DNA of 53,750 bases from Candidatus Thorarchaeota archaeon (GTDB lineage Archaea; Asgardarchaeota; Thorarchaeia; Thorarchaeales; Thorarchaeaceae): positions 1 through 53,750 of the forward strand of contig JAEORO010000184.1 in assembly GCA_016840855.1 (NCBI GenBank), written 5' to 3'. The translations under genes and the position numbers were made by a program. Positions 17,578 through 33,149 of this stretch are shown here, piece after piece. The notes under the pieces are model-generated. The model had not been told where the DNA came from and did not search any database. It worked only from the letters and a program-made list of their open reading frames with translations. How positions within the stretch are numbered: the stretch's first letter is position 1; each line of letters begins with the position of its first letter.

Positions 17578-20500
17578 ATGCATATGAACCGGAGACTGCG
17601 GAGGATACAACTAGTTTCTGTTATTTTTATCACTATGATGCTTGTGGGATTCATCCCGCAAGTTGTTTGGGCTGGCGAAATGATGCAGGAAGAAGAACCA
17701 ATATTTCGAGACCCATTAGCGAAGTATGAGATTGACCCTGTATACATCTTCTACGACCCAACAAATAAATTGTTGAGAACAATTGCAGAGAATGTTCACC
17801 AAGTTCTCGCATTTCGGCTTGAACACATAGAAATGGTGTCAATCTGCGAGTGGACCAAACTTCAATGTGAGTTGCTAGCGGAACCTTGGATCGCTATCTA
17901 CGCACTCAGTTCAGATTTGAGGAGCGTTCATTTCAATGATTTCAACGTTACTTGGAGTGAGTTCTACGGTTTATTGGCTCAACATGAAAATACAGAACAC
18001 ATTGTAGGAATGGGCAACACTTTAAGCTTGGAGCAATATCTTGGTGAAACAGACATAAATATCCGCACAAGCCAAGCAGAACAAGTAGATGGCTTACTTC
18101 TAGCATTCTATGATATGTGGACAATCCATGAAGCTGTTTCAACAAGAGCTCACATTAGCAGTGATTATGAGAATGCTGCAGGAGATCTTCGAACCATTGC
18201 CTTGAAGATTTATGGTGATAACTTTGGTATGTTTTTTGAGAGAGCCATTGAACCAATCGATGCTGTTGGTGAAATTGATGAAAATGACCTAAACAGAAGA
18301 AATGAAGAAATGTGGGAAAGGCATGCCCCAACAATAGAACCAACATTCTATCAAATGAGTGATGAAGGGAAGCTGATAGAGATAGATGAGGAAGAACTAC
18401 CAGAAGACTTCTCACCTGCAATCAAGATAAGCACTGCATCTGAAGTATCATCAAGTGATTATATTCTAGGCGAGATCCCTCTGCTTTCTGCACTAAGAGG
18501 ACCTATTGGCGAGATAATTGATGTTCTTTTGAGCGTCCTGGGTGACTCCGGTTCAACTGTTATTTCAATACCTACGGACCTTATCGAGACCATCAAAGGC
18601 TTGTTTGAAGTTCTTGAACCAATAATTGGAATTGTGAAGGATTTTGATCTCGAGTCTCCTCTAAAATCGATCATCCAAGCCATAGCGAACGAGTTCCCCT
18701 TCATGGCAGAATTCAAGGACTACTTGAATATTATATTGAAAGCTCTCTTCAACTTCAGGGGTGACCTAGAAAGCATTTTAGGAATAGTTGGAGAACTCAT
18801 ATCCGTACTTTTACCGGATTCTGTACCTCAGATTGCTAAGGACTTCATTGGTCAAATCCTTGGTACTGAGAATGGTCTATGGGATATCATCAGTCAAGTT
18901 GTTTCTGAGGGCAAAGGTGTATTCGACACTATATTCAGTTTCTTCACAAAGAATACGCTTCAGGCATTTCTGAACAAGACTCTTGCTGCAACACTCGGAA
19001 TGACTTCTGGGCAGGTTTCAACCCTTCTCCCTCGCGTAATCAGCTTTGTAGAAGCTACACTTGATTTCCTCACAGGCAAGGACTTCGTGAAGTTTGTTGA
19101 AACAATTGGATCTGACCTCTTGGGGTCCATCCTCTCAGTCACGGGTCTGAGCGATGCTGTCGACAAGGTAATGTCTATCGTGAAGATGGGGATGTCTGCC
19201 TTCAAGCTACTAGATGAGTTTGACACAACAACCTTCCTACAGTTTGGAGTCGAGATGCTGAATGAGATAGTTGGACCGTCCAACATCCCAGGTGGTGCTG
19301 AAGACCTCGCAAAGCAAATGATGGCAGTAATCAAAACATTCCAGGAAGGCGCATTTAGTGATATCAATGGTTTCAAGTCTCAGATTTCGAGCATCTTGGA
19401 TTCAGCAACGAGCGGAGTTACCCAGGCCATTAAGGATGTCATACGTGACACTATGACAATGCTCACTGGTTTCTTCAACGGGGCTTTTGACAAGAATCAA
19501 CTACCTGACCTATTCGAGATTGCTGCGAATTTGATTAATGAAGTAATAGGTGGCGGTGACGCAGCGCAAGTCATTGACGCACTGAATAGTGCTGTGAAGC
19601 CACTCATGGGTCTTATCGCCCTTGTTTCTGATAATGATGCTTTGAAGAATATGATCAGCAAAACGGCCAGTAATTTTGCTTCTGAGCTAAGTAATGCCCC
19701 GACCATGATTAAAAATGTTCTATCCTACCTAGATGTTGAGGATGTCATTAGTGGATTACCAGGGTCAGAAGATGTCCTGGATACTGCTGGTCAAATTGTC
19801 GGCGGCATCATCACGATGATCCAAGGCATCAAAGGTCAGTCATTCCAAGGTATCATGCAGTCAGTTTTAATGGCTGCTGGTTCTTTAGTTGGGACATTAC
19901 CGGCATTTGATGATGTCCCAATTGACGCTTTTCTGAAGCTTCTACAATCATTCTTCCCAGATGCTTTTGGTCTTAGTAAAGATGACATGCCTAGCTCTAC
20001 TGAGGTTATCAGCGAGATCCTTGGTTATGCAGAAGGACTTCTCGGAAGTGGTTTCGATGAATCTATGCTCGAGGATACTCTCGAGTTCTTTATGGACATC
20101 AAGGATATCTTCACCAATGGTGTGAAGTGGCTCCTTGGAAAGGTGTTCGATTGGTTGAGTGGGCTCATCAATCCAGTACTTGAAGATATAGAAAGTACAA
20201 TTGAGGGGTTATTTGCAGGTCTTGATGATTTACTTGGATTCTCAGGTAAGTTCCCAATTGGTCTTGGCGACTGGTCCCTCTTTGACTTGGAGTATGCCTT
20301 AGGAATCAAAGCCAATTTCGCTATTGATCTAAACCCGATTTTCGACATGATTGTGAGCATGATTTTCGATGCTCGCGAGGTCTTCTCCACGGACAATATT
20401 GGGGACTTCTTCAAGACAATCCTGAGTTTCTTTGAGATATCTCCCCAGTTTTACGCTGAACTTGGTATTGGTGGTTTTGACACTGAGAAGAACGCTCTCA

Positions 20501-23500
20501 TGAAAACCATGCTGACATCTCTTGGGCTGAAACTCTCCTTCGAAGGTTCCGCGAAATTCGTGGTGAATCTCTTCACCTTTAAAGGAGGTATGTTTGAATG
20601 GGACAATTTCTTCAAGATTGTGGAGTGGGGTCTTCACATAAAGATCCACATTGGGAAAGTGTTCACACTTCTTGACTTCCTAACAGCTGGAGTTGGTGGT
20701 GGCGCATTAAATGCGGTTGCTGAATTTCTGGGTCTTGACATGATTACAATCGAGGTATACTTCGAGATCGCCCTCGACATTGTGAAGAAAGCTGCCACTG
20801 CAATTGCTCCAGAAGTATCTAGTATGACCCTCACCATCATATTCGGGCTCTCGTTGCATATTCCAATAGAACTGATAATAGTAGCCATAACCATAGACGG
20901 GACGCTGGAAATCATACTGACGTTCTTCCAAGACTTTGCAGACCCAGCGCCAATGAAAATAACACTGCGGCTGATATTTACTCTTAAGGTCAAGTTCCGG
21001 TTCCTGTTCTTCAGCGACTCTGCGACATTCTCCTGGGAGCCAGGTGGTCCTTGGGATCTCTCACCCAACAAGGGTGAAACAGAGTATAAGGAGTCCGGAG
21101 TAGGGTTCGATACGGATGGAGACGGTCTAAGCGACGCTTTTGAGAATTCAACGCCGGGATTGGACTTTACTAAGGCTGATACTGATGGTGATGGAGCAAA
21201 CGACAAACTCGAGTTCCAGACGATGAAAACGGACCATACTAATCCTGACAGCGATGGAGACGGTCTCCTTGATGGCCGCGAGTGGGATCTTGGAACCAAT
21301 CCCATGAGACAAGATACTGATTGGGATGATGTGGACGACTACAAAGAAGTGGAAGTCTATGGTACCAACCCACTTGAGCAAGACACTGATGGAGACGGGC
21401 TCACTGATGCATACGAAATATACACCAAACTGGACATCTCAAATGTAACACCAACCGTCACAGAAGTCATCATAGGAGGGGAGTCATTCAATGACCGTAC
21501 TGACCCTCTGAATCCAGATACAGATGGAGACGGGCTTCTTGATGGAGATGAAGGCCCAATGGGTGCATTCTATGGAGACCCTTCACTCTACAATGCTACT
21601 GAAGATTCCAGCTCAGAAAGCGGTTGGGCAATGGACCCGAACCCGCTCTTCTTCAATGGTGGATTCACGCATCCTCTAGATGCAGACACGGATGATGACT
21701 CAGCATTACAATTGTATAATGGTGTTGTCGACTCACAGGCATATCTATTCCTCAAAGATATGAATGACGGCGCAGAAGTCGCAGGGTTCTGGATAATCGT
21801 CTATGATGAGGAAGGCGAGCCTGAGAACAAGCATGTGTTCACCAATCCATGTAACCCTGACACTGATGGAGACACCGGCGTCACTGACCGGACACCTCAA
21901 CCAGGAATGTGGCTCAATAGCGATGGGTATGAACTTGCCCAAACTCCGCCTACTGATCCAACTGACGGTGATTCCGATGATGATGGAATTTTGGATGGTC
22001 TAGAGGGAGTTCTTAATCCTTACAGCAACCATACTAATCCAAATGATCCTGATACCGATGACGATGGACTATTCGACCTCCAAGAGATCCTCCTCGGTTC
22101 TGACCCACGAGAGCAAGACACCGATGGAGATATGATTTCAGACGGTGATGAGTTCTATATCTTCTTCACAAATCCCAATGTCTGGGACTCTGATTTCGAT
22201 GGACTAGGAGACGGTGAAGAAGTCTTCATCTGGCACACAAATCCCCTCACAGACGACAGCGACGCGGATAAGATATACGACGGGGTCGAAGTGCTGATAT
22301 TTGGTTCAGATCCGATGGATGACGATTCTGATAATGATGGATTAACTGACTATGAGGAAATCTACGTCTATTACACAGACCCGTTCGACTATGACACGGA
22401 TGATGACCTCTTGTCCGATGGCGAGGAGATTGAGATCTACAACTGTGACCCACTTTCATGGGATACTGACCGCGACTCAATAACTGAGCCAAACGAGTTA
22501 GGTGAGATGACCTTCCCCCTAAGCGACTATCAAGAGGCTAAAGGCTTCTACATCTACAAGATGGATGAGTCAGGTGTCATGTATCAGGAGTGGGTGTTCA
22601 CAAACATTACACAATCAGATACGGATGAAGATGGTCTAAGTGATGCAATGGAACTGTATCTCGCTTCAGGGAAGATACCCTGGCTTGATCCCATTCCACT
22701 CGACCCTACAAACAAGGACACCGACCATGACTTTATTCCCGATGGAACTGAAATGGCGATAGAGAATGTCTCAGGACTCATTTATCCATATAGAGCAATG
22801 ACCCTTGTCTTCAGGTACAATACATCTCCTGTTGACCGAGACACTGACGATGACTTGCTTATTGATTACCAGGAAGTTCTAGTGTTCAACACAAATCCTG
22901 CAAACAATGACACTGATAATGATGGCATCACCGATTGGTGGGAAACCTGGGTATACAATACCTCAGCGTTGTACAATGACACAGATGGCGATGAGCTCTA
23001 TGATAATGAAGAAACGCTCGTAGAGGTCTGGCCGTATGGGCCATGGCCGCCATCTAATTGGTCCATAGGAATGGGCACTGAGGAGATGTTGGCGTATGCT
23101 GGAGCTTCTTCATTTGCCTTGGCTGAAGAGTCTCCAATATTGCAGTATGTTCCAGCACAGGCCATCTACGGAACTCTAGCGACGGATCCGGACTGTGACG
23201 ATGATTGGTTACCGGATGGTTCAGAAGTCAATTTTTACCATACAGACCCGCTAGATGACGACTCAGATAATGATGGTACGCCAGACACATTGGAGTTTGA
23301 CACAGACTTCGATGGACTTCAAGACGGTCTCGAGTTTCAATTGAAGCTCTACAGAACTGGTGGAGGGATATTGGACCAAGACTCGGATGGTGATGGTGTA
23401 TCTGACGGTGCAGAATACTACATCTACGGAACTGATCCCGCATCGGTGGATACCGATGGAGATGGCTATCCTGATGGTTTGGAGATAGCGATTGGAACCG

Positions 23501-26500
23501 ATCCACTGACCGCAACTACACCAACAGAGTATGAGGAAGCGATAGCAGTATCGCGTGGTGAGGCGTCAATGGACGTCTTGATGCCCTTGGCTGTGGTGAA
23601 CAACGCACAGACTGTCGATGTCAATGTTCTGAATTACACGTCTTTCAAGAGCATGAAGTTCAGGTATAACACAAGTGATGGGTGGAGCACCAACTATACG
23701 ATGACCTACAACCCAGCGACAATGACCTGGGTCTACACAGACATGCAATGGGATGTTGGCACCTACGAACTCCAAGTATTTGCTGTTGACTACAGTGATG
23801 ACGACCACATGGCTGTGAGAATCTTTAAGGTCGCTGCAACTCCGACCTATCCTGAACCTATTAGTCCACTTGTCTATCTTGCAATAGGGCTTGGTTTGGG
23901 AGCTTTTCTAATCCTATTCCTACTCTATGGAATGCCGCTGATAGTCAGGTACATGAAGAAACGAGGGAAAGAGCCTGATGAGAAGCCTCCTGAATTGGCG
24001 GCTCTCACTGAGGATGTTTCAGAGGAGAGTTCTGAGAAAAGCACCAAGAAGAAGACCAGCTCTTCAAAGAAGGAAACAAAGGGTAAGACTCCTAAGAAGA
24101 AATCTGGCAAGGGAAGCAGCAGTCTAGCTTTGATGTTTCTTGCGATGACATTCCTAGGAATGCTATTGGTCAGCTCATTTGGCTATGTTCCAAGCATGCC
24201 AATGAGAGGAATGGAAGATGACACATCATTATACGACGAATATCCTGCAGGATGGGAAGACCTCCCACCTGAACTTCAAGGTCAGATTGCCGAGATGTTC
24301 AATCCCACTGTCCAGAAAATGCCATCAGATCAAGACATCGGGCAAGTGCTTGGCGATAGGGTGAATGATTATGCCTTGAACTATGAGCCGTGGCGTTCAA
24401 AGGCTGCAATACATGCTGTTGCTTACGATGAGGGTACTGGCTTCCTAGCACTTGGTGGTGGCTATCTGTATGACAACCAGATTCATGTGTTTAGACTGAA
24501 TACAGAAACAAAACTATGGGACAAGGTTTGGGACACTGGAGACAGTGTTTTCCAGAGTGATGTCATGGCTCTCGACTTCGGTGACACAGACCTTAACAAC
24601 CTCATTGAGATTGTGGCTGGGTGTTCTGATGGTTATGTATATGTCTTCGAGCAACGGCACCTCTATGACCCATATGCAAACACAGAGAATCAGTTCGACC
24701 ATGTCTGGACATCACCAAAAATGTTCAGAGTCTTTGCATTGAAGGTCGATGATGTTGACCGTGACTACAGACCAGACATTATAGCAGGCGGATGGGATGG
24801 AAAGCTACATCTCTTTGAGTATGACAATCACTCAGGATATCCATTCGTCGAGGAACACTGGATTACCTATGATGAGGTAGCAACACTGAGTGTGGGAGAT
24901 AAAATATACAGTCTTGAAACTGGTGACACGAACTATAATGGTCTTCCAGAGATTATTTGTGGGACTCGAGATGGGACTGTCTATGTCTTTGAGAATGATG
25001 GTGTGACCATCATGATAAATGGTCAGCCGTTCCCATTGATATATGACAACCACTACTATCTCAACTGGACCTCTGAGAATTATACATGGACACCAATTCA
25101 ATCAATGGCTGTAGGAGAACTTGACAACACGCCAGGTGATGAAATTGTCCTGATAGCTCAGGGGCAAGGAGTCTTTACGCTGGAATGGAACCCTACAAAA
25201 CACACCTATGATTATCAAAAGGTATATCGTGACTTCAAGCCTTGGGAAACCTTTGGGTTCTGGGGTCTCGATAATTATGTTGATAGAATAATCTATGCTC
25301 ATAACGTGACTTATCACGACCCAATCAATCCCAGCATCATCGAGAATGAACCGATTCAGTATGTATGGAACGATATTCTCGAGATCTTTGAGCCAGATGC
25401 AAGCGTATATCCGTATAACTCAGGGATGGCGGGGCCAGTTCATCTTACTGCAGGTGCATTAGATGGAAACTTCTCTAATTTCAATGCGTTTCTTGTTGGT
25501 GTTGACAATGCCACTGCAATCTTGGACTTTGGTCTAGATGAAGAAGGAACAGGTGGAGCGAATAGTAATGATGACCTTGTTATCTACTTCAAGTCAGGTA
25601 CTGATTTGGGTCACCTTGGTTCTGACTTCTGGTTCTATATCTCACAGGACGGCACAGACTGGGAACTCATTCCATCAGACAAATTCTATCCAGGAACAGA
25701 TGTTGTTGGTGTCGATGTGGATGATGCTCTCTCGAAAAGAAGGTGGGATTGGTTCCGGTACGCAAAGATTATGGTGAATAACTCAGGGTTCTATCAAATA
25801 AATGGAATTGAACTCACGCAGGTCTATAATACCCTCACTGATGCCTTGAGTGTCACCGTTGGACCTCTGAGGTTGGATGGAATGAGCTATCTCCAAGGTT
25901 TAGATGAACCAATCAAAATCATTGTTGGCAGTGTAACTGGTGAAATCAATGCAATAATGTACAATAGTTCAACATACAAGTATGACGTGATATATGACTC
26001 AGGGGATGACTCGTTCTACACCTTTGGAGCTAATATCTGGGACATGGTCTATGTTGGTAATGAACCCGATGTACCAACATGGAACTGGCAATATGGAATG
26101 CCTTGGACTCCTGACGGTGGAACAACCTATAATTCGTGGAGTTATGCTACTCTAAATCCATGGCTATATGGAGGTGCTACGTTCAATTATTTGATGGGCA
26201 CTAATGAAGGGCAGATCAGAGCATTCACGGTTCCAGATGTTGTACCTGTTGCATCGCCACCTGAACTCGATTTTACTACTCAGGTATACTTGAATAATAT
26301 CAATATCGATTTACCATTGGAGGGATGGCAGAGTGTATCTGTTGAAGCACCATTCTTCATGAACGGTTATGAGTTAGCTAATCAATACAGCGTGTGGCCC
26401 TTCATTGCACTTGGTCTCTACAACCCATCAATTTCTATAGAGAGCATTCCACTGACTACAGAGGAAGATGCACCATCAAGAGCCACAGTTGCCTTCTATT

Positions 26501-29500
26501 ATAGAGACTCTGATACCCAACCATTCAATCATAGAATCAACCTCTATGAAATGGATACGACGGGTGAACTTACAGAGCTCATCAACCTCGCAAAAGCCGA
26601 GCCAAAAATGGACTTTGCTGATTTCGATAGAGATGGTGATCTCGATTTCATCATATCAAACGGATATGTTCAGATGGCTCGAAACATGTGGTATGAGGAT
26701 GAATCGCTTAACTTCACTTTGGTCAGGGGCTACTTTGACGAAATAAATTCGAAGGAAACCAGTAAAATCTGGGGTCAGCCTGAGATGGTGGATATCGACT
26801 CAGATGGAGATTTAGACATTATCCTGAGCTATGCAAATAGCATGGGTGCAACTTGTTGGATTAACGAGGGAACTGCTGAGGATCCAGTCTGGGTTGAAGA
26901 CAAGAAGATAATGTCTAACCCATTACCTGATACCAATATGAAATACCAAAACTTCACCGACATTCGAATTGTACCAAAGCTCGGTGGGTATGTTAGTGGA
27001 TACACACTAGAGAGATGGTACGAGTTCTGGGGGTGGGATATGGACTTCGATTGGACACTTGCTGGTTACCGCGAGTGGAATCAAAGAATAGCATGGGCTG
27101 CTCCAGAATTCGATACAACAGAGAGTTACATCGTTGCCAGCTATCCCAGAGTGGCTCAACTAGACTTTAGCCTCATGAGCGGTGGCTTAGTTGGATATGA
27201 AATCTATAGCAATATTGGATTCCATATTCACGAATCATGGAGCAATGATGCGGACCTTAAAGAGTGGACTCTGTCTATTGCCACTGGAGACATTGATGGC
27301 GATGGAAATGGAGAACTGATCATAGGTGACTACGACAATAATGTCTATGCATTCGAACACCTAACAAAGAACAACTACAAGAGAATGTTCCGTTCCTTCG
27401 ATCTCAATCATACAGAAGTAACAGATGTTTCTCCGTACCTCTATGAGGAATTAGAGGGTATCTCGGGAGACTTCAACAGAAGAATCTGGGACCATGCGAA
27501 GCACCTTGTTGCAGATGTTGATCTTGACCAAGACGGATTGAAAGAGATAATCGTTGCATCGAACCTTCAGATTTACGTATTTGAGGATGCTGGCTTGTAC
27601 GGGGGCGACTTGCTTACCTATCAGTACTCAATCGACTTGCGTGATTCAGCCTGGGCCGATAGAGATGAATTCATCGACCTAGTGACAGAGATTACTGCCA
27701 TGGCGGCGGGAGATGACCTCGATTATAATGGAGAGCTTGAGCTTGCTGTTGCAGCAGGACCATATCTCTTCATCTACAATATCCCGGTTGGTGAGTTTGA
27801 TGGATTTGAAGACAAGGAGTTCTTCGTAACATCTCCAGCATTAGAAGGGAGATACTACTTAGTTGGGAATCCAGAACTTCCTGAGTTCAGGTACTACTAC
27901 ATTAATGCGATAACACTTTGCGATACTGATCAGGATGGCTACAAAGAAGTCCTCATTGGAGGCATCAAGGACACTCGACTAATACGTCAGGATGGCTTTG
28001 TACATCTATATGAATGTCAGGGAGGTACTTTCTACAAAGTGTGGGAAGCTCCAGATGAGGTGACATATTGGAATCCAATTAGTGTATTAACACTTGATGA
28101 TCAGGATATGGATGGAGCTCAGGAGATTGTTATTGGACACACCAATGGTTTTGACCTGTGGGAATGGATAGAAGGTACTGATTCAAAATATCAGAAAGTG
28201 GAGTATGTAACTGCATCGCCAAACTATCCAGTAGTCCCATTAAGGTCAACAGCATATGATACTGGCGATTTTCCAGACTCCGCAACTACAGAACGGTCCA
28301 TCAAGGATATGGCTAAAGGAGTCTATGGAGCGATGGTGAATTGGACTCTCATGGTCTATGAGAACGGTAAGGAGATATGGTACAAGTGGTACTCAGAAGT
28401 CGCTGACGACTGGTTACCTGGTGCTAAGTGGATGGACCTAGCAGGACTTGCCTATACAACTAACTTTAGCACGATTATATCTGAAACACGCCCTAGTGTG
28501 TTAATACCTGCCAATGGAGACATCTACGCCTCATGGGAAGTTTGGGATTCAGGCGGCCAACACTACATTGCATTGTGTTGGGGTGACGTGTCAGCTGGTC
28601 TCTGGCATGGACCAATTCTTTGGCCAGATACCTATGGTATAATACCTATTGGTCAAACATCTTATGACCGATACTATCCGAGCCTCTTTGAATACGACTC
28701 AGGCAATATTGGTATAGTATTCATGTATGATGCGTGGAATGCGTTTACAGGAAATGTGTATGGTCGAGTTGGGGCAGCTTATGCAGCAAAGGATCTATCA
28801 AGTGGGTGGACAAATCGACATCCTGATTTCAATGATAAGACATACTTCCAAGCTCATGATGTTGATGTTGTAGAGCTTAGTGATGGTGACTTTGCTATCG
28901 CTATGTCAGCAGTTTACACTCGATCTTCAAAGGCTGATATCGATGTTTGGGTGGTTGTTGGTAACAGCAACTTCAACTTCACTGGTGCAAATCCACATCA
29001 GGCGACCACATCTTATGACGATGAAATGTTTGTTTCAGTTGAGGAATTGGAATCCGATGAACATGCAATCGTTGTGACATACGAATCCATTGGAGTAGAG
29101 CTCGAAGATAGAATTGGCATGGTTTCTAGCACTACAAAGGGTAGAGAGTGGAGTCTCCAAGAAACACTCAACACGATACCTAGATACATCTCAAGAACAG
29201 AGATGCCGGGAGGATACGTTTACTATTATATTGAGGGGTCCCCATTTGCGATCTATCAGCTTTCAATATTCTCACCCACTGTAGTTGCCAGGGATGGAGC
29301 AGGATTTTTGTATGCAGCTACTTTCAGCTATAAAGTCTACATTCCTCCAGGAGTAATCACAGACAAGGGAATCTGGCTCTGTGTCCACGACATTGTTTAC
29401 GGATTCAATCCACAGTCTGATTGGACATTGAACCATCTGAGAGATGTCATTGACCTAGATGTTGGAGATACTGACTCAGATGGGAGAAGAGAGGTCGTTG

Positions 29501-32223
29501 TTGGCTTTGGAAACCAAGTTGCTGTCTATGAGATGAAGCATTCTACAAACGGAACCGAATTCATGAGTTATGATGAAGCCTGGTTATCAGATCCATTTGA
29601 TAATCCAATTACTGGTGTGAGTGTGTATGATACAAATGGGAATGGTTGGGAAGAGATTGGTATTTCGTCTAAACAGGGTGATGTGTACATCTATGAGTAT
29701 ATTGATCCCTCCGAAGGAGCGATAACTCTTTGGTATTCAGAGCAGTCTTGGACCTACCCAGCAAATGGTGACCAAGACACGTTGATAGATGGTCTCTTGT
29801 ATCCAGACTTGCTTCAAGCTTATGACTTGGATCAGGATGGTAGAGATGAGATAATCTTAGCGTCTTATGACCTAGGCATAATCGAAGCAATCGATGAATA
29901 TGGCATTCAAATCTGGGAAAATGCTGGTAATGCAACCGACGGGTTCTCAAATGTTATCCTGAGCGATCTTAATGTCGATGGCATCCCTGAGATAGTCTGT
30001 ACCTCTAAGGATTCAAACCTGTATATCTTTAATGTAACAACAGGAAATCTAGCGTGGAGCTACATAGATGCTAGTAGCCCGCTAGTTTCAGTGATTTCGG
30101 GTGATCTCACAGGTGATAATTTCCCTGAAATTATCTTCACTGATGAGAGTGGGTACATTCATGTGATTAACTCCACAGGCAATCTCCTAGGTAGCTATTC
30201 CACTGGTGGAACCTACATATTCCGTTTAGCACTCGGGAATTTCACTGACGTTCCAGGAAAGCAGCTTGCCTACGTTGCGTACAATGAAACACTCGTTGTA
30301 ATGGATCCACTTAATGGAACCATCTACTACAAGAGTCCTGATAGCACAGCAACTCCATATGCAACATTTGTACCCTACGACTTCAACAACGATGGGTTTG
30401 AGGACATTGTGTTTGTACGGCAAAAGATACACATACTTGATGTATGCACAGGTATAGTCTATTATAACTCAACGACAGATCTAGGTTGGCCCCATGAAGT
30501 TTACGTTTATGACTTCGATGGTGACAACTCAACAGAGATTCTAACTCTGACATTTGACCAAGGTCTATACCTGGAAGAAGTCGCATCTAGAAGCCTTCAG
30601 TGGCACTACGATCTTGATACAGAGAACCATGTTATTTGGGATCTCGCCTTCGGAAATGCGGGTGGTTCCGGAGCACTTGACATATTTGTTGGTGCATCCG
30701 TATATCTTGGTGATGTAGGGATTGTAGCTGCAATCGATGGGAAGAATGGAATACCATTGTGGTTCAACTTCACTGGTGGTGATCTCGGTGAGATCATCGG
30801 TGTAAAGTTGAATGGTGCAGGCTATGATTCCCTTGTAGCTTGGGATATGCAGAATGAACAACTCATCGCAGTCACGGGCGTTGAACCAACTGAATACATA
30901 GTGACACCAGCTTATGAGAAGCATGACCTCTATTGGCAAATGGATGCTAGCACCGTTTATGGTGTCTGGGTAGACAATATTGATGGAATAGATCTTGACG
31001 AGATTATTGTCGCGGGCCGAAACAAAGATGGGAAGTACAGTCTTGCTCTCGTTGAAGGCTCAACGATGGAGGTTAGATGGAACATCACCTTTGATGTCAA
31101 GATATCTGCTATTCAGATTGGCTACATTAGTGACTGGACAACCAAGGATCTTGCTGTTTGGTCTGGACTACGCGATGTCTATGTCATGGATGGCCTGGAT
31201 GGTAAGGAGCTAATCCACATAAAAGCACCAGACACCCATGAAATCAAAGGCATTCAAGTTGCAGATTTCAGCAGCGCGGCTGGTAATGACTTTGAGGAAA
31301 TTGCTGTCTTGATCCGACAGTGGTCAGGTGGCAGTGAGGTATACATAGAATGGTACGATGAAGCAGGTAATGTTCTATATAACACCAAGGCAGATGGCTT
31401 TACATCGACTGCAACTTCATATTACATGGTAGTTGGTAATTTCAGAGGAGGCAGTACCGCAGATATAGCAATAGGAGCAACTTTGTTCAGTGCTCGTATC
31501 TATAATGGTGGAAATGGAGCTCTCTGGACAACAGTATCACCTTCATCAACCTATGGTCTGGTATCGGGTGATTTCAATGGCGACGGGTCTGGTGACTTAG
31601 CTGTAATGGACTCAGGAGATGACATTCATATGTTCGAGTTCGTTGGCGGTGGCAGCATGACTCTCAATTTCGCCACTGGTGCAGTGAGAGAGTTCTTTGC
31701 TGGAGACCTCTATAATAACGACACTGTAGATGAACTCGTTGTCAATCTTGAAAGATATGGCGCAATTGCGTATAGCTTTGCTGGGACAGAGGTCTGGAGA
31801 TACAATGCTCCATTGGTGTTGGGAGGCAAAGACACTCACATCATTCTCGAGGACATGAATGCTGATGGATGGACTGACCTTGTTCTAACCAACAAGGAAT
31901 ACATCAACGTTGTTGATGGACCTTCTGCTCGACTTATGTGGCATTACTGGAAGGATGACCTCAGAAGCAATTTTGACCCAAGAGTTGGATACATCTATAG
32001 TTCATCAGGTAGGGATGTGCTATGTTATGGCTACAATCTGGTTTACGTTGTAGCTCATGATATTACTGCTCCACCAGTACCTCTTGCTGCATTTCTCTAT
32101 CAGCCAAATGCAGTATATGTACCTCTTGATTTAGCTCTCTTTCTTGGGCTTGTCTGCTTCCAGCTTCTAGTGGTTGGTATTCCATACTCGAAGATGGTTT
32201 GGATACGGAGAAGAAGAAAATAG
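17578..32223 (+). CDS. Giant (4881 aa) cell-surface protein with DxDxDG Ca-binding (TSP3-like) repeats and FG-GAP/VCBS beta-propeller repeats, four hydrophobic segments
   Basis: Uninterrupted 14.6 kb ORF with strong SD (GGAGGAG); signal peptide ending VWA; internal TMs at ~aa 2097-2123 and ~2183-2204; C-terminal TM plus RRRRK. Start may be ATG 17584. Confidence 0.9.
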   Translation: MHMNRRLRRIQLVSVIFITMMLVGFIPQVVWAGEMMQEEEPIFRDPLAKYEIDPVYIFYDPTNKLLRTIAENVHQVLAFRLEHIEMVSICEWTKLQCELLAEPWIAIYALSSDLRSVHFNDFNVTWSEFYGLLAQHENTEHIVGMGNTLSLEQYLGETDINIRTSQAEQVDGLLLAFYDMWTIHEAVSTRAHISSDYENAAGDLRTIALKIYGDNFGMFFERAIEPIDAVGEIDENDLNRRNEEMWERHAPTIEPTFYQMSDEGKLIEIDEEELPEDFSPAIKISTASEVSSSDYILGEIPLLSALRGPIGEIIDVLLSVLGDSGSTVISIPTDLIETIKGLFEVLEPIIGIVKDFDLESPLKSIIQAIANEFPFMAEFKDYLNIILKALFNFRGDLESILGIVGELISVLLPDSVPQIAKDFIGQILGTENGLWDIISQVVSEGKGVFDTIFSFFTKNTLQAFLNKTLAATLGMTSGQVSTLLPRVISFVEATLDFLTGKDFVKFVETIGSDLLGSILSVTGLSDAVDKVMSIVKMGMSAFKLLDEFDTTTFLQFGVEMLNEIVGPSNIPGGAEDLAKQMMAVIKTFQEGAFSDINGFKSQISSILDSATSGVTQAIKDVIRDTMTMLTGFFNGAFDKNQLPDLFEIAANLINEVIGGGDAAQVIDALNSAVKPLMGLIALVSDNDALKNMISKTASNFASELSNAPTMIKNVLSYLDVEDVISGLPGSEDVLDTAGQIVGGIITMIQGIKGQSFQGIMQSVLMAAGSLVGTLPAFDDVPIDAFLKLLQSFFPDAFGLSKDDMPSSTEVISEILGYAEGLLGSGFDESMLEDTLEFFMDIKDIFTNGVKWLLGKVFDWLSGLINPVLEDIESTIEGLFAGLDDLLGFSGKFPIGLGDWSLFDLEYALGIKANFAIDLNPIFDMIVSMIFDAREVFSTDNIGDFFKTILSFFEISPQFYAELGIGGFDTEKNALMKTMLTSLGLKLSFEGSAKFVVNLFTFKGGMFEWDNFFKIVEWGLHIKIHIGKVFTLLDFLTAGVGGGALNAVAEFLGLDMITIEVYFEIALDIVKKAATAIAPEVSSMTLTIIFGLSLHIPIELIIVAITIDGTLEIILTFFQDFADPAPMKITLRLIFTLKVKFRFLFFSDSATFSWEPGGPWDLSPNKGETEYKESGVGFDTDGDGLSDAFENSTPGLDFTKADTDGDGANDKLEFQTMKTDHTNPDSDGDGLLDGREWDLGTNPMRQDTDWDDVDDYKEVEVYGTNPLEQDTDGDGLTDAYEIYTKLDISNVTPTVTEVIIGGESFNDRTDPLNPDTDGDGLLDGDEGPMGAFYGDPSLYNATEDSSSESGWAMDPNPLFFNGGFTHPLDADTDDDSALQLYNGVVDSQAYLFLKDMNDGAEVAGFWIIVYDEEGEPENKHVFTNPCNPDTDGDTGVTDRTPQPGMWLNSDGYELAQTPPTDPTDGDSDDDGILDGLEGVLNPYSNHTNPNDPDTDDDGLFDLQEILLGSDPREQDTDGDMISDGDEFYIFFTNPNVWDSDFDGLGDGEEVFIWHTNPLTDDSDADKIYDGVEVLIFGSDPMDDDSDNDGLTDYEEIYVYYTDPFDYDTDDDLLSDGEEIEIYNCDPLSWDTDRDSITEPNELGEMTFPLSDYQEAKGFYIYKMDESGVMYQEWVFTNITQSDTDEDGLSDAMELYLASGKIPWLDPIPLDPTNKDTDHDFIPDGTEMAIENVSGLIYPYRAMTLVFRYNTSPVDRDTDDDLLIDYQEVLVFNTNPANNDTDNDGITDWWETWVYNTSALYNDTDGDELYDNEETLVEVWPYGPWPPSNWSIGMGTEEMLAYAGASSFALAEESPILQYVPAQAIYGTLATDPDCDDDWLPDGSEVNFYHTDPLDDDSDNDGTPDTLEFDTDFDGLQDGLEFQLKLYRTGGGILDQDSDGDGVSDGAEYYIYGTDPASVDTDGDGYPDGLEIAIGTDPLTATTPTEYEEAIAVSRGEASMDVLMPLAVVNNAQTVDVNVLNYTSFKSMKFRYNTSDGWSTNYTMTYNPATMTWVYTDMQWDVGTYELQVFAVDYSDDDHMAVRIFKVAATPTYPEPISPLVYLAIGLGLGAFLILFLLYGMPLIVRYMKKRGKEPDEKPPELAALTEDVSEESSEKSTKKKTSSSKKETKGKTPKKKSGKGSSSLALMFLAMTFLGMLLVSSFGYVPSMPMRGMEDDTSLYDEYPAGWEDLPPELQGQIAEMFNPTVQKMPSDQDIGQVLGDRVNDYALNYEPWRSKAAIHAVAYDEGTGFLALGGGYLYDNQIHVFRLNTETKLWDKVWDTGDSVFQSDVMALDFGDTDLNNLIEIVAGCSDGYVYVFEQRHLYDPYANTENQFDHVWTSPKMFRVFALKVDDVDRDYRPDIIAGGWDGKLHLFEYDNHSGYPFVEEHWITYDEVATLSVGDKIYSLETGDTNYNGLPEIICGTRDGTVYVFENDGVTIMINGQPFPLIYDNHYYLNWTSENYTWTPIQSMAVGELDNTPGDEIVLIAQGQGVFTLEWNPTKHTYDYQKVYRDFKPWETFGFWGLDNYVDRIIYAHNVTYHDPINPSIIENEPIQYVWNDILEIFEPDASVYPYNSGMAGPVHLTAGALDGNFSNFNAFLVGVDNATAILDFGLDEEGTGGANSNDDLVIYFKSGTDLGHLGSDFWFYISQDGTDWELIPSDKFYPGTDVVGVDVDDALSKRRWDWFRYAKIMVNNSGFYQINGIELTQVYNTLTDALSVTVGPLRLDGMSYLQGLDEPIKIIVGSVTGEINAIMYNSSTYKYDVIYDSGDDSFYTFGANIWDMVYVGNEPDVPTWNWQYGMPWTPDGGTTYNSWSYATLNPWLYGGATFNYLMGTNEGQIRAFTVPDVVPVASPPELDFTTQVYLNNINIDLPLEGWQSVSVEAPFFMNGYELANQYSVWPFIALGLYNPSISIESIPLTTEEDAPSRATVAFYYRDSDTQPFNHRINLYEMDTTGELTELINLAKAEPKMDFADFDRDGDLDFIISNGYVQMARNMWYEDESLNFTLVRGYFDEINSKETSKIWGQPEMVDIDSDGDLDIILSYANSMGATCWINEGTAEDPVWVEDKKIMSNPLPDTNMKYQNFTDIRIVPKLGGYVSGYTLERWYEFWGWDMDFDWTLAGYREWNQRIAWAAPEFDTTESYIVASYPRVAQLDFSLMSGGLVGYEIYSNIGFHIHESWSNDADLKEWTLSIATGDIDGDGNGELIIGDYDNNVYAFEHLTKNNYKRMFRSFDLNHTEVTDVSPYLYEELEGISGDFNRRIWDHAKHLVADVDLDQDGLKEIIVASNLQIYVFEDAGLYGGDLLTYQYSIDLRDSAWADRDEFIDLVTEITAMAAGDDLDYNGELELAVAAGPYLFIYNIPVGEFDGFEDKEFFVTSPALEGRYYLVGNPELPEFRYYYINAITLCDTDQDGYKEVLIGGIKDTRLIRQDGFVHLYECQGGTFYKVWEAPDEVTYWNPISVLTLDDQDMDGAQEIVIGHTNGFDLWEWIEGTDSKYQKVEYVTASPNYPVVPLRSTAYDTGDFPDSATTERSIKDMAKGVYGAMVNWTLMVYENGKEIWYKWYSEVADDWLPGAKWMDLAGLAYTTNFSTIISETRPSVLIPANGDIYASWEVWDSGGQHYIALCWGDVSAGLWHGPILWPDTYGIIPIGQTSYDRYYPSLFEYDSGNIGIVFMYDAWNAFTGNVYGRVGAAYAAKDLSSGWTNRHPDFNDKTYFQAHDVDVVELSDGDFAIAMSAVYTRSSKADIDVWVVVGNSNFNFTGANPHQATTSYDDEMFVSVEELESDEHAIVVTYESIGVELEDRIGMVSSTTKGREWSLQETLNTIPRYISRTEMPGGYVYYYIEGSPFAIYQLSIFSPTVVARDGAGFLYAATFSYKVYIPPGVITDKGIWLCVHDIVYGFNPQSDWTLNHLRDVIDLDVGDTDSDGRREVVVGFGNQVAVYEMKHSTNGTEFMSYDEAWLSDPFDNPITGVSVYDTNGNGWEEIGISSKQGDVYIYEYIDPSEGAITLWYSEQSWTYPANGDQDTLIDGLLYPDLLQAYDLDQDGRDEIILASYDLGIIEAIDEYGIQIWENAGNATDGFSNVILSDLNVDGIPEIVCTSKDSNLYIFNVTTGNLAWSYIDASSPLVSVISGDLTGDNFPEIIFTDESGYIHVINSTGNLLGSYSTGGTYIFRLALGNFTDVPGKQLAYVAYNETLVVMDPLNGTIYYKSPDSTATPYATFVPYDFNNDGFEDIVFVRQKIHILDVCTGIVYYNSTTDLGWPHEVYVYDFDGDNSTEILTLTFDQGLYLEEVASRSLQWHYDLDTENHVIWDLAFGNAGGSGALDIFVGASVYLGDVGIVAAIDGKNGIPLWFNFTGGDLGEIIGVKLNGAGYDSLVAWDMQNEQLIAVTGVEPTEYIVTPAYEKHDLYWQMDASTVYGVWVDNIDGIDLDEIIVAGRNKDGKYSLALVEGSTMEVRWNITFDVKISAIQIGYISDWTTKDLAVWSGLRDVYVMDGLDGKELIHIKAPDTHEIKGIQVADFSSAAGNDFEEIAVLIRQWSGGSEVYIEWYDEAGNVLYNTKADGFTSTATSYYMVVGNFRGGSTADIAIGATLFSARIYNGGNGALWTTVSPSSTYGLVSGDFNGDGSGDLAVMDSGDDIHMFEFVGGGSMTLNFATGAVREFFAGDLYNNDTVDELVVNLERYGAIAYSFAGTEVWRYNAPLVLGGKDTHIILEDMNADGWTDLVLTNKEYINVVDGPSARLMWHYWKDDLRSNFDPRVGYIYSSSGRDVLCYGYNLVYVVAHDITAPPVPLAAFLYQPNAVYVPLDLALFLGLVCFQLLVVGIPYSKMVWIRRRRK
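21109..23505 (+). repeat. About 25 intragenic D-[TS]-D-x-D-G-x-x-D-x-x-E...T-[ND]-P calcium-binding repeats
   Basis: DTDGDGLSD, DSDGDGLLD, DTDGDGLTD, DSDDDGILD, DSDNDGLTD, DTDGDGYPD etc.; core period about 19-20 aa with variable insertions. Confidence 0.9.
24400..32050 (+). repeat. Intragenic FG-GAP / VCBS-type propeller blade repeats
   Basis: GDTDLNNLIEIVAG, DVDRDYRPDIIAG, ADFDRDGDLDFII, GDIDGDGNGELIIG, DLDQDGLKEIIVA, DTNGNGWEEIGI, DFNNDGFEDIVF, GDFNGDGSGDLAV, DMNADGWTDLVL and more. Confidence 0.85.
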
Positions 32224-32399: not shown

Positions 32400-33149
32400 T
32401 TGGACAGTTCTGTTCTAATATTAGCTGGATTAGTAGGGTTAATTGCAGGACTCGCTAGTGGGTTCTTTGGAATTGGAGGCGGATCCATAAGAATACCACT
32501 TCTGAATCTGATAGGATTTACATTAATTGCGTCATTTGGAATGAATCTAATTTCTCTTCCAGTATCAAGTCTTATAGGAGCCATAACTCAAAGGCAGAAC
32601 ATTGACCTTCATATTGGCTCATCCATGATTCTTGGAGGGATAATAGGAACAATAATTGGCACATTGATAGCTTTCAATCTTGCCACCTCTCCAATACTTC
32701 TAGCAATTATTTTCCTTCTTGTGTCTATTTTATCAATTATTGGAATGAATTTACGATATCTAGCACCAAAAAAGTCAGAAACCCTTTCACCATCATTCAA
32801 CAACTTGGTTTCAGGAACACTTGTTTTTAATATCCTTACAGGGATGCGAGGAGGTAGTGAAGGTTCATTGTTTGTTCCCCTACAAAGATTCCTCAATGTC
32901 GAAATGCACAAAGCAATAGCAACGGCGTTGTTTGCTGCAGTTTTCACCTCAGTTGTTGGCGTCGTGCTTTATTGGAGCTATGGGAACCTATTGCTTCTCC
33001 CTGGGTTCATTGTACTTGTTGGGTCTGCTATTGGTTCTCATATAGGAAGTCGATTCTCTCTCGAAACAAAGTCGAAATGGTTAGAGGTTGGTCTCACATC
33101 TTTGATTCTTATACTGGCTGGAATTCCTCTAGTGCAAGTCCTCATCTAG
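32400..33149 (+). CDS. Sulfite exporter TauE/SafE family permease
   Basis: AGLASGFFGIGGGSIRIP, repeated GxxGG half, HKAIAT, about 8 TMs; TTG start with AGGAG SD. Confidence 0.85.
   Translation: MDSSVLILAGLVGLIAGLASGFFGIGGGSIRIPLLNLIGFTLIASFGMNLISLPVSSLIGAITQRQNIDLHIGSSMILGGIIGTIIGTLIAFNLATSPILLAIIFLLVSILSIIGMNLRYLAPKKSETLSPSFNNLVSGTLVFNILTGMRGGSEGSLFVPLQRFLNVEMHKAIATALFAAVFTSVVGVVLYWSYGNLLLLPGFIVLVGSAIGSHIGSRFSLETKSKWLEVGLTSLILILAGIPLVQVLI

What the first reader, a model, noticed from the sequence alone, without database searches (positions are those of the whole stretch)
17578..32223. Giant surface protein organised as a two-subunit 'polyprotein' (Ca-repeat stalk subunit + FG-GAP propeller subunit)
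Seen: one ORF with an N-terminal signal peptide, a ~2050-aa ectodomain A, a TM (23866-23946), a ~59-aa Lys/Ser/Glu-rich loop, a second hydrophobic stretch (24124-24189) preceded by KKKSGK that reads like an internal signal peptide, a ~2600-aa ectodomain B of FG-GAP propellers, and a final TM plus RRRRK. Known: FG-GAP blades build the integrin-alpha propeller; DxDxDG repeats bind Ca2+; internal signal sequences split viral envelope polyproteins into separately anchored subunits. Inference: two type-I membrane adhesins made 1:1 from one gene, either cleaved into a heterodimer or left as a double-ectodomain hairpin. This is a candidate cell-contact or receptor system in a probable Asgard archaeon, and I do not recognise the architecture.
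Basis: partly seen in the sequence, partly recalled or inferred. Interest (0 to 1): 0.85.

Follow-up and report, generated by a model that had tools for sequence, protein, structure and literature searches.

The report
Two fused giant Asgard surface proteins
This 4,881-residue gene of a Thorarchaeota-like Asgard archaeon is a natural fusion of two neighbouring genes for giant membrane-anchored surface proteins that occur as a pair across Asgard archaea, and the signal peptide of the second protein survives in the middle of the fused protein.

Summary
One ORF (17578-32223, 4,881 aa) carries an N-terminal signal peptide, ectodomain A, a TM helix, a 59-aa Lys-rich loop, a second hydrophobic stretch, ectodomain B and a last TM plus RRRRK.

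New here: A and B are separate, adjacent, translationally coupled genes in most relatives. B then starts with an ordinary signal peptide, homologous to the "internal" one. A-like sequence lies directly upstream of B in 63 of 63 evaluable loci, from Thor-, Loki-, Heimdall-, Hod-, Hermod- and Njord-labelled genomes.

In the window's clade a net 1-nt loss before A's stop codon merged the frames. Trees show at least three independent fusions. An independent sample's contig spans the junction without a difference.

A has a conserved ~1,120-aa head with no PDB fold match, followed by Ca-binding TSP3 repeats. B is a chain of FG-GAP-type propellers.

Topology rests on charge distribution and homology. 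Cleavage by signal peptidase, A-B binding and an adhesive role are inferred. No Pfam or NCBIfam family covers the architecture, and my searches found no paper on it.

The parts
17578..32223 (+). Whole fused gene A-B, 4,881 aa plus stop
   Evidence: Single open frame. Only one copy of half B in the window's own genome.
17578..17673 (+). Signal peptide of A (aa 1-32: n-region RRLRR, h-region, c-region VWA|G)
   Evidence: KD peak 2.34 at aa 12-30; sequence. The cleavage site is inferred from the -3/-1 rule and no predictor was run.
17725..18477 (+). A head, alpha/beta subdomain (about aa 50-300)
   Evidence: AlphaFold model with pLDDT about 90 in this part. The same subdomain (profile positions about 12-196) also occurs at the N-terminus of other large proteins.
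18502..20226 (+). A head, helical region (about aa 309-883)
   Evidence: About 30 helices in the model. The PDB profile search gave only designed helical repeat proteins, best E = 3e-4.
20227..21003 (+). A head, sheet of very long beta strands (about aa 884-1142), the best conserved part of A
   Evidence: Strands of 13-19 residues in the model. Highest column conservation of A, 0.57-0.67. Contains the hydrophobic peak at aa 1086-1117.
21025..23577 (+). Ca2+-binding TSP3-type repeat stalk (about aa 1150-2000)
   Evidence: Pfam TSP3_bac 53 bits, 7 stretches. 32 DxDxD motifs against a shuffle mean of 3.3. NCBIfam CglD 120 bits, below its cut-off of 400.
23578..23865 (+). Membrane-proximal segment of A (aa 2001-2096), fold not determined
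   Evidence: Conserved in split relatives just before the TM (A tails). Not modelled here.
23866..23946 (+). TM helix of A (TM2, aa 2097-2123)
   Evidence: KD peak 2.65. Present at the C-terminal end of free-standing A proteins.
23947..24123 (+). Cytoplasmic loop (aa 2124-2182), the former cytoplasmic tail of A
   Evidence: 16 K + 2 R against 8 E + 2 D. Free-standing A proteins of Thor relatives end in the same Lys/Ser/Thr/Glu-rich tail.
24109..24135 (+). Fusion scar: the place of A's former GGAGG motif, stop codon and B's former start codon
   Evidence: DNA alignment of 7 fused and 5 split junctions. Split: AAG GGA GGT GCG TAG A GTG. Fused: one base shorter before the TAG, which is still visible out of frame in 5 of the 6 fused sequences of this clade; in the window it has since changed to CAG.
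24124..24189 (+). Internal signal peptide / TM3 (aa 2183-2204), with a putative signal-peptidase site SSFG|Y between G2202 and Y2203 (nt 24183|24184)
   Evidence: KD peak 2.21. Aligns with the h- and c-regions of the N-terminal signal peptides of free-standing B proteins. Cleavage is inferred, not shown.
24382..26379 (+). B, first propeller module with an inserted beta domain (about aa 2269-2934), the best conserved part of B
   Evidence: AlphaFold pLDDT 85, pTM 0.81 for aa 2240-3400. Conservation 0.67-0.75 over aa 2280-2519. Pfam Beta-prop_BBS7 30.6 bits, cut-off 27. PDB sequence hit to ITFG2, E = 1.4e-6, over one 31-aa blade.
26380..32124 (+). B, further FG-GAP/VCBS-type propeller region (aa 2935-4849)
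   Evidence: Pfam FG-GAP_3 and weaker propeller families. 12 Ca-loop motifs. Only aa 2240-3400 was modelled.
32125..32187 (+). TM helix of B (TM4, about aa 4850-4870)
   Evidence: KD peak 2.41.
32188..32223 (+). Short basic cytoplasmic tail (SKMVWIRRRRK) and stop codon
   Evidence: Sequence.

Best explanation
The ORF is a real, intact gene made by fusing two adjacent genes, A and B. These two genes form a conserved, translationally coupled pair in Asgard archaea.

Protein A has a signal peptide, a ~1,120-aa head of unknown fold, ~850 aa of Ca2+-binding TSP3 repeats, a TM helix and a Lys-rich cytoplasmic tail. Protein B has a signal peptide, a long chain of FG-GAP/VCBS-type beta-propellers, a TM helix and a short basic tail.

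In the ancestor of the window's clade, a net loss of one base just before A's stop codon put A's frame into B's frame. Three parts of the fused protein follow from that:
- The cytoplasmic loop is A's old tail.
- The second hydrophobic stretch is B's old signal peptide. After the loop it now acts as an internal start-transfer sequence (N-in, C-out).
- Both giant ectodomains therefore end up outside the cell: out - TM2 - in - TM3 - out - TM4 - in.

I think it somewhat more likely than not (about 55%) that signal peptidase I then cuts after SSFG (G2202|Y2203). That would restore two type-I subunits in 1:1 ratio, with A keeping a small C-terminal hairpin. The two subunits probably work together as one Ca2+-dependent cell-surface complex for contact or ligand binding.

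Shown: the gene, the fusion, its recurrence, the conserved pairing and the domain families. Inferred: topology, cleavage, A-B binding and function.
For: 1. Split forms. In G010, G001, G028 and G039 the A-like frame (2,073-2,304 aa) ends 1-11 nt before, or overlaps, the start of the B-like frame (2,654-2,908 aa) on the same strand.

2. Adjacency. One search returned 65 loci from a scan of one genome per species. A-like sequence lies upstream of B on the same strand in 63. The other two begin at a contig edge. The whole ~1,100-aa A head is collinear there in 50 loci, with at least 900 residues covered and no stop.

3. Translational coupling. In all 49 loci where A ends in another frame than B, the first start codon the script picked in B's frame lies -11 to +20 nt from A's stop; some of the -8 GTG picks are the GTG inside the GGAGGTG motif, the more likely start then lying 1 nt after the stop. 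In 9 further loci B's frame opens just after A's stop in the same frame, as checked in L036 and L045. A commonly ends in ...GG[A/K/E/L/I], which encodes a GGAGG motif.

4. Signal peptides. Free-standing B proteins start with ordinary signal peptides, for example ...IPAFSA|ANG...SVQA|GT, and in Thor relatives x[AST]F[GS]|[VAI][IV]P. The fused stretch LALMFLAMTFLGMLLVSSFG|YVPS aligns with them.

5. Scar. The fused junction is one base shorter between GG and the TAG. The TAG persists out of frame in 5 of 6 fused sequences of the clade. GGAGGTG is kept in 5 of 5 split sequences but GGAGGT in only 1 of 6 fused ones.

6. Recurrence. The six fused sequences of the window's clade form one group (SH-aLRT 99), sister to split L029+L030. 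Fused L049 sits among split relatives in another clade. Fused P0012 and P0020 group with split L065. P0012 and P0020 have the same TM - basic loop - signal-like stretch.

7. Permuted order. In a paralogous copy the order is B then A, again with stop/start overlap.

8. Topology. The loop has net charge +8, the stretch after TM3 is acidic, the tail is RRRRK, and all 42 sequons lie in the ectodomains.

9. Not an artefact. Seven open frames carry the junction, and an independent contig spans it with 0 differences.
Against: - No signal-peptide or topology predictor could be run. The topology rests on the positive-inside rule and on homology.
- Cleavage is unproven. In the window's clade the uncharged run before the putative site has grown from 16-17 residues in split relatives to 24, of which 20 are hydrophobic (sequences). 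That looks more like a stable TM helix and could reduce cleavage.
- No direct evidence shows that A binds B.
- The pair is patchy, not universal. 84 of 400 genomes of the phylum match B's first module at E <= 1e-40, 24 of 90 among high-quality genomes, and 0 of 135 in one large family.
- The trees are quick IQ-TREE searches with SH-aLRT only. The P0012/P0020/L065 group has long branches.
Confidence: 0.8

Rival explanations
1. The same fusion and topology, but the internal signal peptide is not cleaved. The mature protein is one ~530-kDa chain with two ectodomains joined by a TM-loop-TM hairpin, and B is anchored at both ends.
For: In the window's clade the charged n-region (KLK) of B's signal peptide was replaced by uncharged residues. 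The hydrophobic run before SSFG lengthened to 20 residues, against 16 from the last charge to the site in split relatives L029-L035. That is the length of a full TM helix. Longer h-regions disfavour signal-peptidase cleavage (recalled general knowledge, not tested here).
Against: The c-region motif (small-F-G/S followed by V/Y-V/I-P) is kept in all six fused sequences of the clade. The other fused lineages keep signal-peptide-like lengths: 19 residues in L049 against 18 in its split relatives, and 18 in P0012. Only about 65 residues separate TM3 from the first propeller, so B's most conserved module would be held at the membrane, unlike in species with split genes.
Confidence: 0.4
2. The fused frame is open, but B is still made separately by translation starting inside the gene (at the in-frame TTG ATG, nt 24130-24135). 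The fusion would then matter little.
For: An in-frame TTG ATG, or GTG ATG in the G004 sequence, is kept in all six fused sequences of the clade. L049/G003 keeps GGAGG and an ATG 13 nt downstream.
Against: GGAGGT is lost in 5 of 6 fused sequences of the window's clade; the window itself reads GGGAAGC. A product starting at M2186 would have no charged n-region. Even with internal starts, ribosomes that translate A would read through into B, because no stop remains.
Confidence: 0.1
3. The long ORF is an assembly or sequencing artefact, that is, a missed base at the junction of two real genes.
For: The fused and split forms differ by a net single base at the junction.
Against: The same junction occurs in seven open frames from relatives of the genus and in database proteins of 4,684 and 4,887 aa. 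A contig from a run of a sample not flagged as the source spans 23661-24500 with 0 differences and 0 gaps at word depth 25.5. The sequence downstream of the scar has since diverged: the n-region is lost and the h-region changed. That takes evolutionary time, not one read error.
Confidence: 0.02

Closest known systems
Integrin alpha/beta heterodimer (metazoan)
   Same: Two type-I membrane subunits with N-terminal heads, C-terminal TM helices and short cytoplasmic tails. One subunit is built on FG-GAP blades with DxDxDG Ca2+ loops (Pfam FG-GAP_3; 12 loops).
   Different: - No beta-I/VWA domain and no integrin leg domains were found by Pfam.
- The tail is RRRRK, not GFFKR (GFFKR is recalled).
- B has several propellers. 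The top fold matches are multi-propeller proteins (DDB1, SF3B3, CPSF160), not integrins.
- A is unrelated to integrin beta.
- Heterodimer formation is not shown.
Astrotactin-1/2 (vertebrates)
   Same: The same layout: signal peptide, lumenal or extracellular N-domain, two TM helices around a cytoplasmic loop, and a large C-terminal extracellular domain. Both mature by signal-peptidase cleavage at the second TM helix (abstract of 10.1101/493858).
   Different: Eukaryotic ER. The domains are unrelated. There is no final TM helix. Its fragments stay linked by a disulfide bond. It is not known to derive from two genes.
Viral envelope glycoprotein precursors (bunyavirus Gn/Gc, flavivirus prM-E, HCV E1-E2)
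   Same: Internal signal sequences divide one polyprotein into separately anchored type-I subunits that pair with each other. The titles and abstracts listed describe precursor processing; the details are recalled.
   Different: These are viral proteins cut by the host ER signal peptidase, and they are small. Here a cellular gene pair became a polyprotein secondarily, at least three times.
Myxococcus CglD ('integrin-like adhesin', NCBIfam NF033765) and MtsD (NF047639)
   Same: Long runs of bacterial TSP3-type Ca2+-binding repeats in a surface protein (CglD preprint seen only in the listing).
   Different: Scores are far below the family cut-offs (120 against 400 bits, and 38 against 800) and cover only the repeats. 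Those proteins are lipoproteins of a diderm bacterium. They have no A-type head and no TM anchor.
'Badge' protein of Nerearchaeum marumarumayae (LOKIASV2_13140)
   Same: Described as a very large surface protein with a novel predicted fold and very large beta sheets, with homologues in all Promethearchaeaceae genomes (passages of 10.1101/2025.07.22.663070). The A head modelled here also ends in a sheet of very long strands without a PDB match, and Loki relatives carry the A-B pair (L045, L059).
   Different: The preprint passages mention neither a partner gene nor a fusion.

Membership tests
Gene fusion of an adjacent gene pair (Rosetta-stone type) | The halves occur as separate genes in relatives | tested here: met
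   Split frames in G010, G001, G028, G039 and G035. 57 of the 65 loci are split, 6 are fused and 2 cannot be judged.
Gene fusion of an adjacent gene pair (Rosetta-stone type) | The split genes are adjacent, on the same strand and in the same order as in the fusion | tested here: met
   63 of 63 evaluable loci. One paralogous copy has the order B then A.
Gene fusion of an adjacent gene pair (Rosetta-stone type) | A junction scar explains the fusion | tested here: met
   Net 1-nt loss before the TAG. The relic TAG is out of frame in 5 of 6 fused sequences.
FG-GAP / VCBS beta-propeller superfamily | Profile match above the curated cut-off | tested here: met
   PF13517 FG-GAP_3: 45.9 bits against a cut-off of 26.9, 4 stretches.
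FG-GAP / VCBS beta-propeller superfamily | Ca2+-binding DxDxDGxxE loops in the blades and an all-beta propeller fold | tested here: met
   12 loops in B. All-beta model with pLDDT 85; 799 PDB fold matches at E <= 1e-3, led by multi-propeller proteins.
Integrin alpha subunit | Integrin leg domains after a single seven-bladed propeller, and a GFFKR motif after the TM helix | tested here: not met
   No Pfam integrin-alpha leg family at E <= 0.1. Several propellers instead of one. The tail reads SKMVWIRRRRK. The defining features are recalled.
Integrin beta subunit (for half A) | Beta-I (VWA-like) domain with a MIDAS site | tested here: not met
   No VWA or integrin-beta family in Pfam at E <= 0.1. 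The A head has no PDB fold match at E <= 1e-3.
Bacterial TSP3 repeat proteins (PF18884) | Profile match above the cut-off, and repeated DxDxD motifs | tested here: met
   53 bits against a cut-off of 25, 7 stretches. 32 motifs against a shuffle mean of 3.3.
CglD equivalog (NF033765) | Whole-protein score above the curated cut-off | tested here: not met
   120.1 bits against a cut-off of 400; only the repeats match.
Signal-peptidase-processed membrane polyprotein | Internal hydrophobic stretch after a cytoplasmic, positively charged loop, homologous to a real signal peptide | tested here: met
   Loop net charge +8. The stretch aligns with the N-terminal signal peptides of free-standing B proteins.
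Signal-peptidase-processed membrane polyprotein | Small residues at -3 and -1 of a c-region | tested here: inconclusive
   S-F-G|Y fits by eye. No predictor was run, and the h-region is long, at 20 residues.
Signal-peptidase-processed membrane polyprotein | Cleavage products observed | not testable with these tools
   Needs proteomics or immunoblots. No RNA or protein data were available.

The most novel reading that the evidence does not exclude
A and B are the two subunits of an ancient, Asgard-wide heterodimeric surface receptor built on the integrin plan: two type-I chains whose N-terminal heads meet far from the membrane on Ca2+-stiffened legs. This receptor would be (part of) the unidentified 'complex surface proteins' seen by cryo-tomography on Lokiarchaeia, and it would mediate contact with syntrophic partners. 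The fused versions would be true cellular polyproteins, cut by signal peptidase at a retained internal signal peptide. I know of no described case of this in archaea; that rests on recall and on one search.
Probability: 0.2. Interest if true: 0.85.

Novelty: new variant of a known kind. Interest (0 to 1): 0.6.

Why it matters
- Cultured Asgard archaea lack an S-layer and carry unidentified 'complex surface proteins'. These have been proposed to enable the cell-cell contacts relevant to eukaryogenesis (passages of PMC9834061; 10.1101/2025.07.22.663070).
- The A-B pair is a concrete and conserved candidate: two giant membrane-anchored proteins, one with a head of unknown fold, found from Thor- to Loki-, Heimdall-, Hod-, Hermod- and Njord-labelled genomes.
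- The repeated fusions are natural experiments. They argue that the two proteins act together, and that a signal peptide can work from inside an archaeal protein.
- The fused genes also offer a simple test system for internal signal-peptidase cleavage in archaea.

Tried and rejected
- **A-B complex prediction**. A head sheet (A2 residues 800-1120) against B's first propeller module (A3 residues 30-700). No verdict: score 0.00 against a mark of 0.32, and the controls were not run. This is neither support nor evidence against. Only this one domain pair was tried.
- **RNA evidence.** No RNA holder was listed for 23600-24500, so expression is untested. Of the four runs laid, X7 gave no contig and X9 covered only the ends.
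- **A head, PDB by sequence.** Only designed helical repeats, best E = 3e-4.
- **A head, PDB by fold.** Nothing at E <= 1e-3. The top rows were microsomal triglyceride transfer protein, lipovitellin and vitellogenin (E about 5e-3, TM about 0.1). I regard these as too weak to claim a lipid-transfer fold.
- **A head, ESM Atlas.** Best score 0.82, below the 0.9 level.
- **Conserved third gene.** None across lineages within the flanks held, which reach roughly 3 kb upstream of A and 2-4 kb downstream of B.
- **NCBIfam C-terminal sorting signals** (PGF-CTERM and the like). None matched at E <= 0.1.
- **Literature.** Searches found no paper describing this gene pair or its fusion. Liu et al. 2021 is cited in PMC9258230 for 'integrin repeat-containing ESPs' in Asgard genomes. 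It is not held, and supplements are closed, so family B may already be listed there.
- **Careful tree search.** It did not finish in the time allowed. The quick trees are reported instead.
Full report
**Observation**

The window is one whole contig of a 3.36-Mb genome bin that is 92% complete. Positions 17578-32223 on the + strand form one open frame of 4,881 codons.

A fifth peak at aa 1086-1117 lies on long beta strands in the later model and is not a membrane helix. A weak peak (1.68) at aa 4368-4386 inside ectodomain B was not examined further.

The 59 residues between the second and third segments hold 16 Lys and 2 Arg against 10 acidic residues. KKKSGK stands directly before the third segment, and the protein ends in RRRRK.

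Pfam finds bacterial TSP3 repeats in the first half and FG-GAP-like repeats plus weaker propeller families in the second half. The TSP3 region holds 32 DxDxD motifs, against a mean of 3.3 and a maximum of 9 in 500 shuffles.

**What the relatives show**

I searched each half separately in 40 related genomes.

- In several genomes of the same genus both halves lie in one frame: 4,901, 4,716 and 4,839 aa, plus two frames cut by contig ends.
- In others the halves are two adjacent frames on the same strand: G010 (2,304 and 2,698 aa) and G001 (2,252 and 2,671 aa).
- The same split holds in other families of the phylum: G028 (2,073 and 2,654 aa), G039 (2,240 and 2,908 aa) and G035 (1,553 and 1,830 aa).

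At the split junctions, A ends in a basic tail whose last codons spell a GGAGG motif. B starts 1-11 nt later or overlaps A's stop (ATGA). B's product then begins with an ordinary signal peptide, for example MKLRQIKLLILNLFLIGILSLSSVISVQA|GT.

**Breadth**

A pattern scan of one genome per species, using an alignment of B's first module, returned 65 loci. Their record titles name Thorarchaeota, Lokiarchaeum ossiferum, Harpocratesius, Promethearchaeum, Hermod-, Hod-, Heimdall- and Njordarchaeota.

- In 63 of the 65 loci A-like sequence lies directly upstream on the same strand. The other two start at a contig edge.
- In 50 loci the whole ~1,100-aa A head aligns collinearly without a stop, at 22-91% identity.
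- Six loci are fused, 57 are split and 2 cannot be judged. By their frame lengths the six fused loci are probably the same assemblies as the fused genomes. I count them once.
- In every split locus A's stop and B's start lie within about 20 nt or overlap.
- A paralogous copy in G039 has the order B then A, again with an overlap.
- No third gene is conserved across lineages within the flanks held.

A census of 400 genomes of the phylum finds B's first module in 84: 24 of 90 high-quality genomes, 44 of 85 in the window's family, and 0 of 135 in one large family. The pair is widespread but patchy.

**How the fusion arose**

I aligned the junction DNA of 7 fused and 5 split sequences. Split relatives read AAG GGA GGT GCG TAG A GTG AAG. 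This is the end of A, one spacer base, then B's GTG start. The fused clade reads AAG GGT GGC AGT AGT CTT GCG TTG ATG.

The fused version is one base shorter before the TAG, and this carries A's frame into B's frame. The old TAG is still visible out of frame in 5 of the 6 fused sequences of this clade. In the window itself it has since changed to CAG.

GGAGGTG is kept in 5 of 5 split sequences, but GGAGGT in only 1 of 6 fused ones. This argues that separate initiation of B is no longer maintained.

**Recurrence**

Quick maximum-likelihood trees of B's first module give the following picture.

- The six fused sequences of the window's clade form one group (SH-aLRT 99). It is sister to the split pair L029+L030 and nested among split forms.
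- Fused L049 sits among split relatives in a different Thor clade.
- A search of 5.8 billion proteins added fused proteins of 4,355, 4,348 and 4,816 aa (P0012, P0013, P0020). P0020 is named Asgardarchaeia by its source.
- The junctions of P0012 and P0020 again read TM - basic loop - signal-like stretch. P0013 was not examined at the junction and is counted by its length and TSP3 domain only.
- P0012 and P0020 group with split L065.

So there were at least three independent fusions. The last group has long branches, and the careful tree search did not finish.

**Artefact check**

The junction stands in seven open frames from relatives and in database proteins from other sources. Logan contigs of runs from other samples were laid on 23600-24500. 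One 1,044-nt contig (X6, word depth 25.5) spans 23661-24500 with 0 differences and 0 gaps. Pieces from X11 cover 23600-24120 and 24150-24393 without a difference. The sequence after the scar has also diverged from the split relatives. A misassembly is very unlikely.

**Anatomy**

*Head of A.* An AlphaFold model of aa 31-1150, built from 44 aligned sequences, has pLDDT 76 and pTM 0.53. It shows three parts:
- a confident alpha/beta domain;
- about 570 residues of helices;
- a sheet of very long strands, which is the best conserved part of A.

Evidence on what this head is:
- Foldseek finds no PDB match at E <= 1e-3. The top rows are lipid-transfer proteins at TM about 0.1, too weak to use.
- The PDB sequence profile search and the ESM Atlas gave nothing useful.
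- A profile search of 1.84 billion representatives finds only 210 relatives at E <= 1e-3. The full-length ones are mostly 2,040-2,330 aa, the size of free-standing A.

*First part of B.* The model of aa 2240-3400, built from 38 sequences, has pLDDT 85 and pTM 0.81 and is all-beta. It matches multi-propeller proteins such as DDB1, SF3B3 and CPSF160 at E about 1e-16, with low TM scores because the domains are arranged differently.

The best sequence-level hits of the first propeller are eukaryotic FG-GAP-type propellers: Pfam Beta-prop_BBS7 at 30.6 bits (cut-off 27) and PDB ITFG2 at E = 1.4e-6 over one 31-residue blade.

*Known families.* NCBIfam gives only sub-threshold hits to CglD and MtsD through the TSP3 repeats.

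**Mechanism**

Shown: two type-I surface proteins encoded as a coupled pair, fused here by a frameshifting deletion.

Inferred topology: the signal peptide of A opens export. TM2 stops it. The Lys-rich former tail stays in the cytoplasm (net +8). The former signal peptide of B restarts export (N-in, C-out). TM4 stops it again, and RRRRK stays inside. Three further observations support this:
- the stretch after TM3 is acidic;
- all 42 sequons lie in the ectodomains;
- free-standing B is clearly an exported protein.

Whether signal peptidase then cuts after SSFG (G2202|Y2203) is open.
- For cleavage: the c-region motif small-F-G/S followed by V/Y-V/I-P is kept in all fused forms, and the other fused lineages keep signal-peptide-like lengths.
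- Against cleavage: in the window's clade the uncharged run before the site grew from 16-17 to 24 residues.

I put cleavage at about 55%. Known precedents for such processing are astrotactins (abstract of 10.1101/493858) and viral glycoprotein precursors (listing; details recalled).

That A and B act together is inferred from four things: conserved adjacency in both orders, translational coupling, co-conservation and repeated fusion. It has not been tested directly. The single complex prediction I ran gave no verdict.

A role in Ca2+-dependent surface contact or ligand binding is inferred from the domain families only.

**Comparison and novelty**

The layout resembles integrins: two type-I subunits, FG-GAP blades and short tails. 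It fails the integrin membership tests, with no leg domains, no beta-I domain and no GFFKR.

Public names of the homologues are generic. Six literature searches found no description of the pair or its fusion.

Papers on cultured Asgard archaea describe unidentified 'complex surface proteins' and no S-layer (PMC9834061, passages; PMC11284389, passages). One preprint describes a very large 'badge' surface protein with big beta sheets that is conserved in Promethearchaeaceae (10.1101/2025.07.22.663070, passages). That protein could be A, but I could not test it.

PMC9258230 (passage) cites Liu et al. 2021 for integrin-repeat proteins in Asgard genomes. That paper is not held and supplements are closed, so family B may already be catalogued there.

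**Verdict**

The 'polyprotein' is a recurrent natural fusion of a conserved Asgard gene pair. It is a new variant of known kinds of thing (giant repeat adhesins, gene fusions, internally signalled membrane precursors). It comes with an uncharacterised, conserved head domain and a clear set of experiments.

Noticed in passing
L090 (G039:C23:3500-21000, reverse strand): A paralogous copy of the pair (about 31% identity) has the opposite gene order. A B-like frame of 2,711 aa is followed directly by an A-like frame of 2,195 aa, and the start overlaps the stop. The same genome also has a copy in the usual A-then-B order.
   Followed up: yes
window 24763-24999 (aa 2396-2474); homologues P0002-P0055: The first propeller of B scores above Pfam's cut-off for the eukaryotic BBSome propeller family (Beta-prop_BBS7, 30.6 against 27 bits). 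It also hits ITFG2 and BBS2 in PDB and Pfam. Most homologues (50 of 54 listed) carry PF23743, and many also carry PF14783 or PF15907, in the precomputed lists. This may bear on the origin of these eukaryotic propellers.
   Followed up: partly
L058, L060, L062, L064, L066, L075 (downstream of B): In six Heimdall-, Hod- or Hermod-labelled loci a third gene follows B on the same strand at a median distance of 10 nt (the longest example is 955 aa). It was not found in Thor or Loki loci within the flanks held. Its family was not examined.
   Followed up: no
e.g. G354:C29:26641-27633, G346:C6:687-1646, G365:C4:315277-316236: A second, shorter family (open frames of about 1,940-1,985 aa) matches only positions 20-340 of B's first module at E about 1e-60 to 1e-71. 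It is present in many genomes of the window's family.
   Followed up: no
window 17700-18260 (profile positions about 12-196 of alignment A2): The N-terminal alpha/beta subdomain of the A head also occurs alone at the N-terminus of other large proteins of about 800-2,500 aa. Examples are P0140, P0143, P0145, P0151, P0155 and P0157.
   Followed up: no
A tails in L045, L059, L074 against the window's 23947-24123: The cytoplasmic tail of A is long (60-75 aa, Lys/Ser/Thr/Glu-rich) in Thor relatives. In the Loki- and Heimdall-labelled loci it is only about 7-10 residues, for example ...LKKKKGGA and ...WRRKEGGI.
   Followed up: partly
L036; L042; G022:C38:10531-10995 against 10980-16733: Possible broken copies or assembly errors in relatives:
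- The B frame of L036 stops after 1,293 aa, well inside the locus.
- The A head of L042 contains one stop.
- In G022 the first about 155 aa of A lie in a different frame from the rest.
   Followed up: no
window 20634-21305 (- strand) and other antisense ORFs inside the gene: Antisense ORFs of 106-223 aa lie within the giant gene. They were not examined and are probably chance frames.
   Followed up: no
window 12904-14796 (-), 15841-17274 (+), 32400-33149 (+): The neighbours are housekeeping genes: threonyl-tRNA synthetase with the archaeal editing domain, a pyridine-nucleotide disulphide oxidoreductase and a TauE/SafE exporter. Nothing links them to the giant gene.
   Followed up: partly
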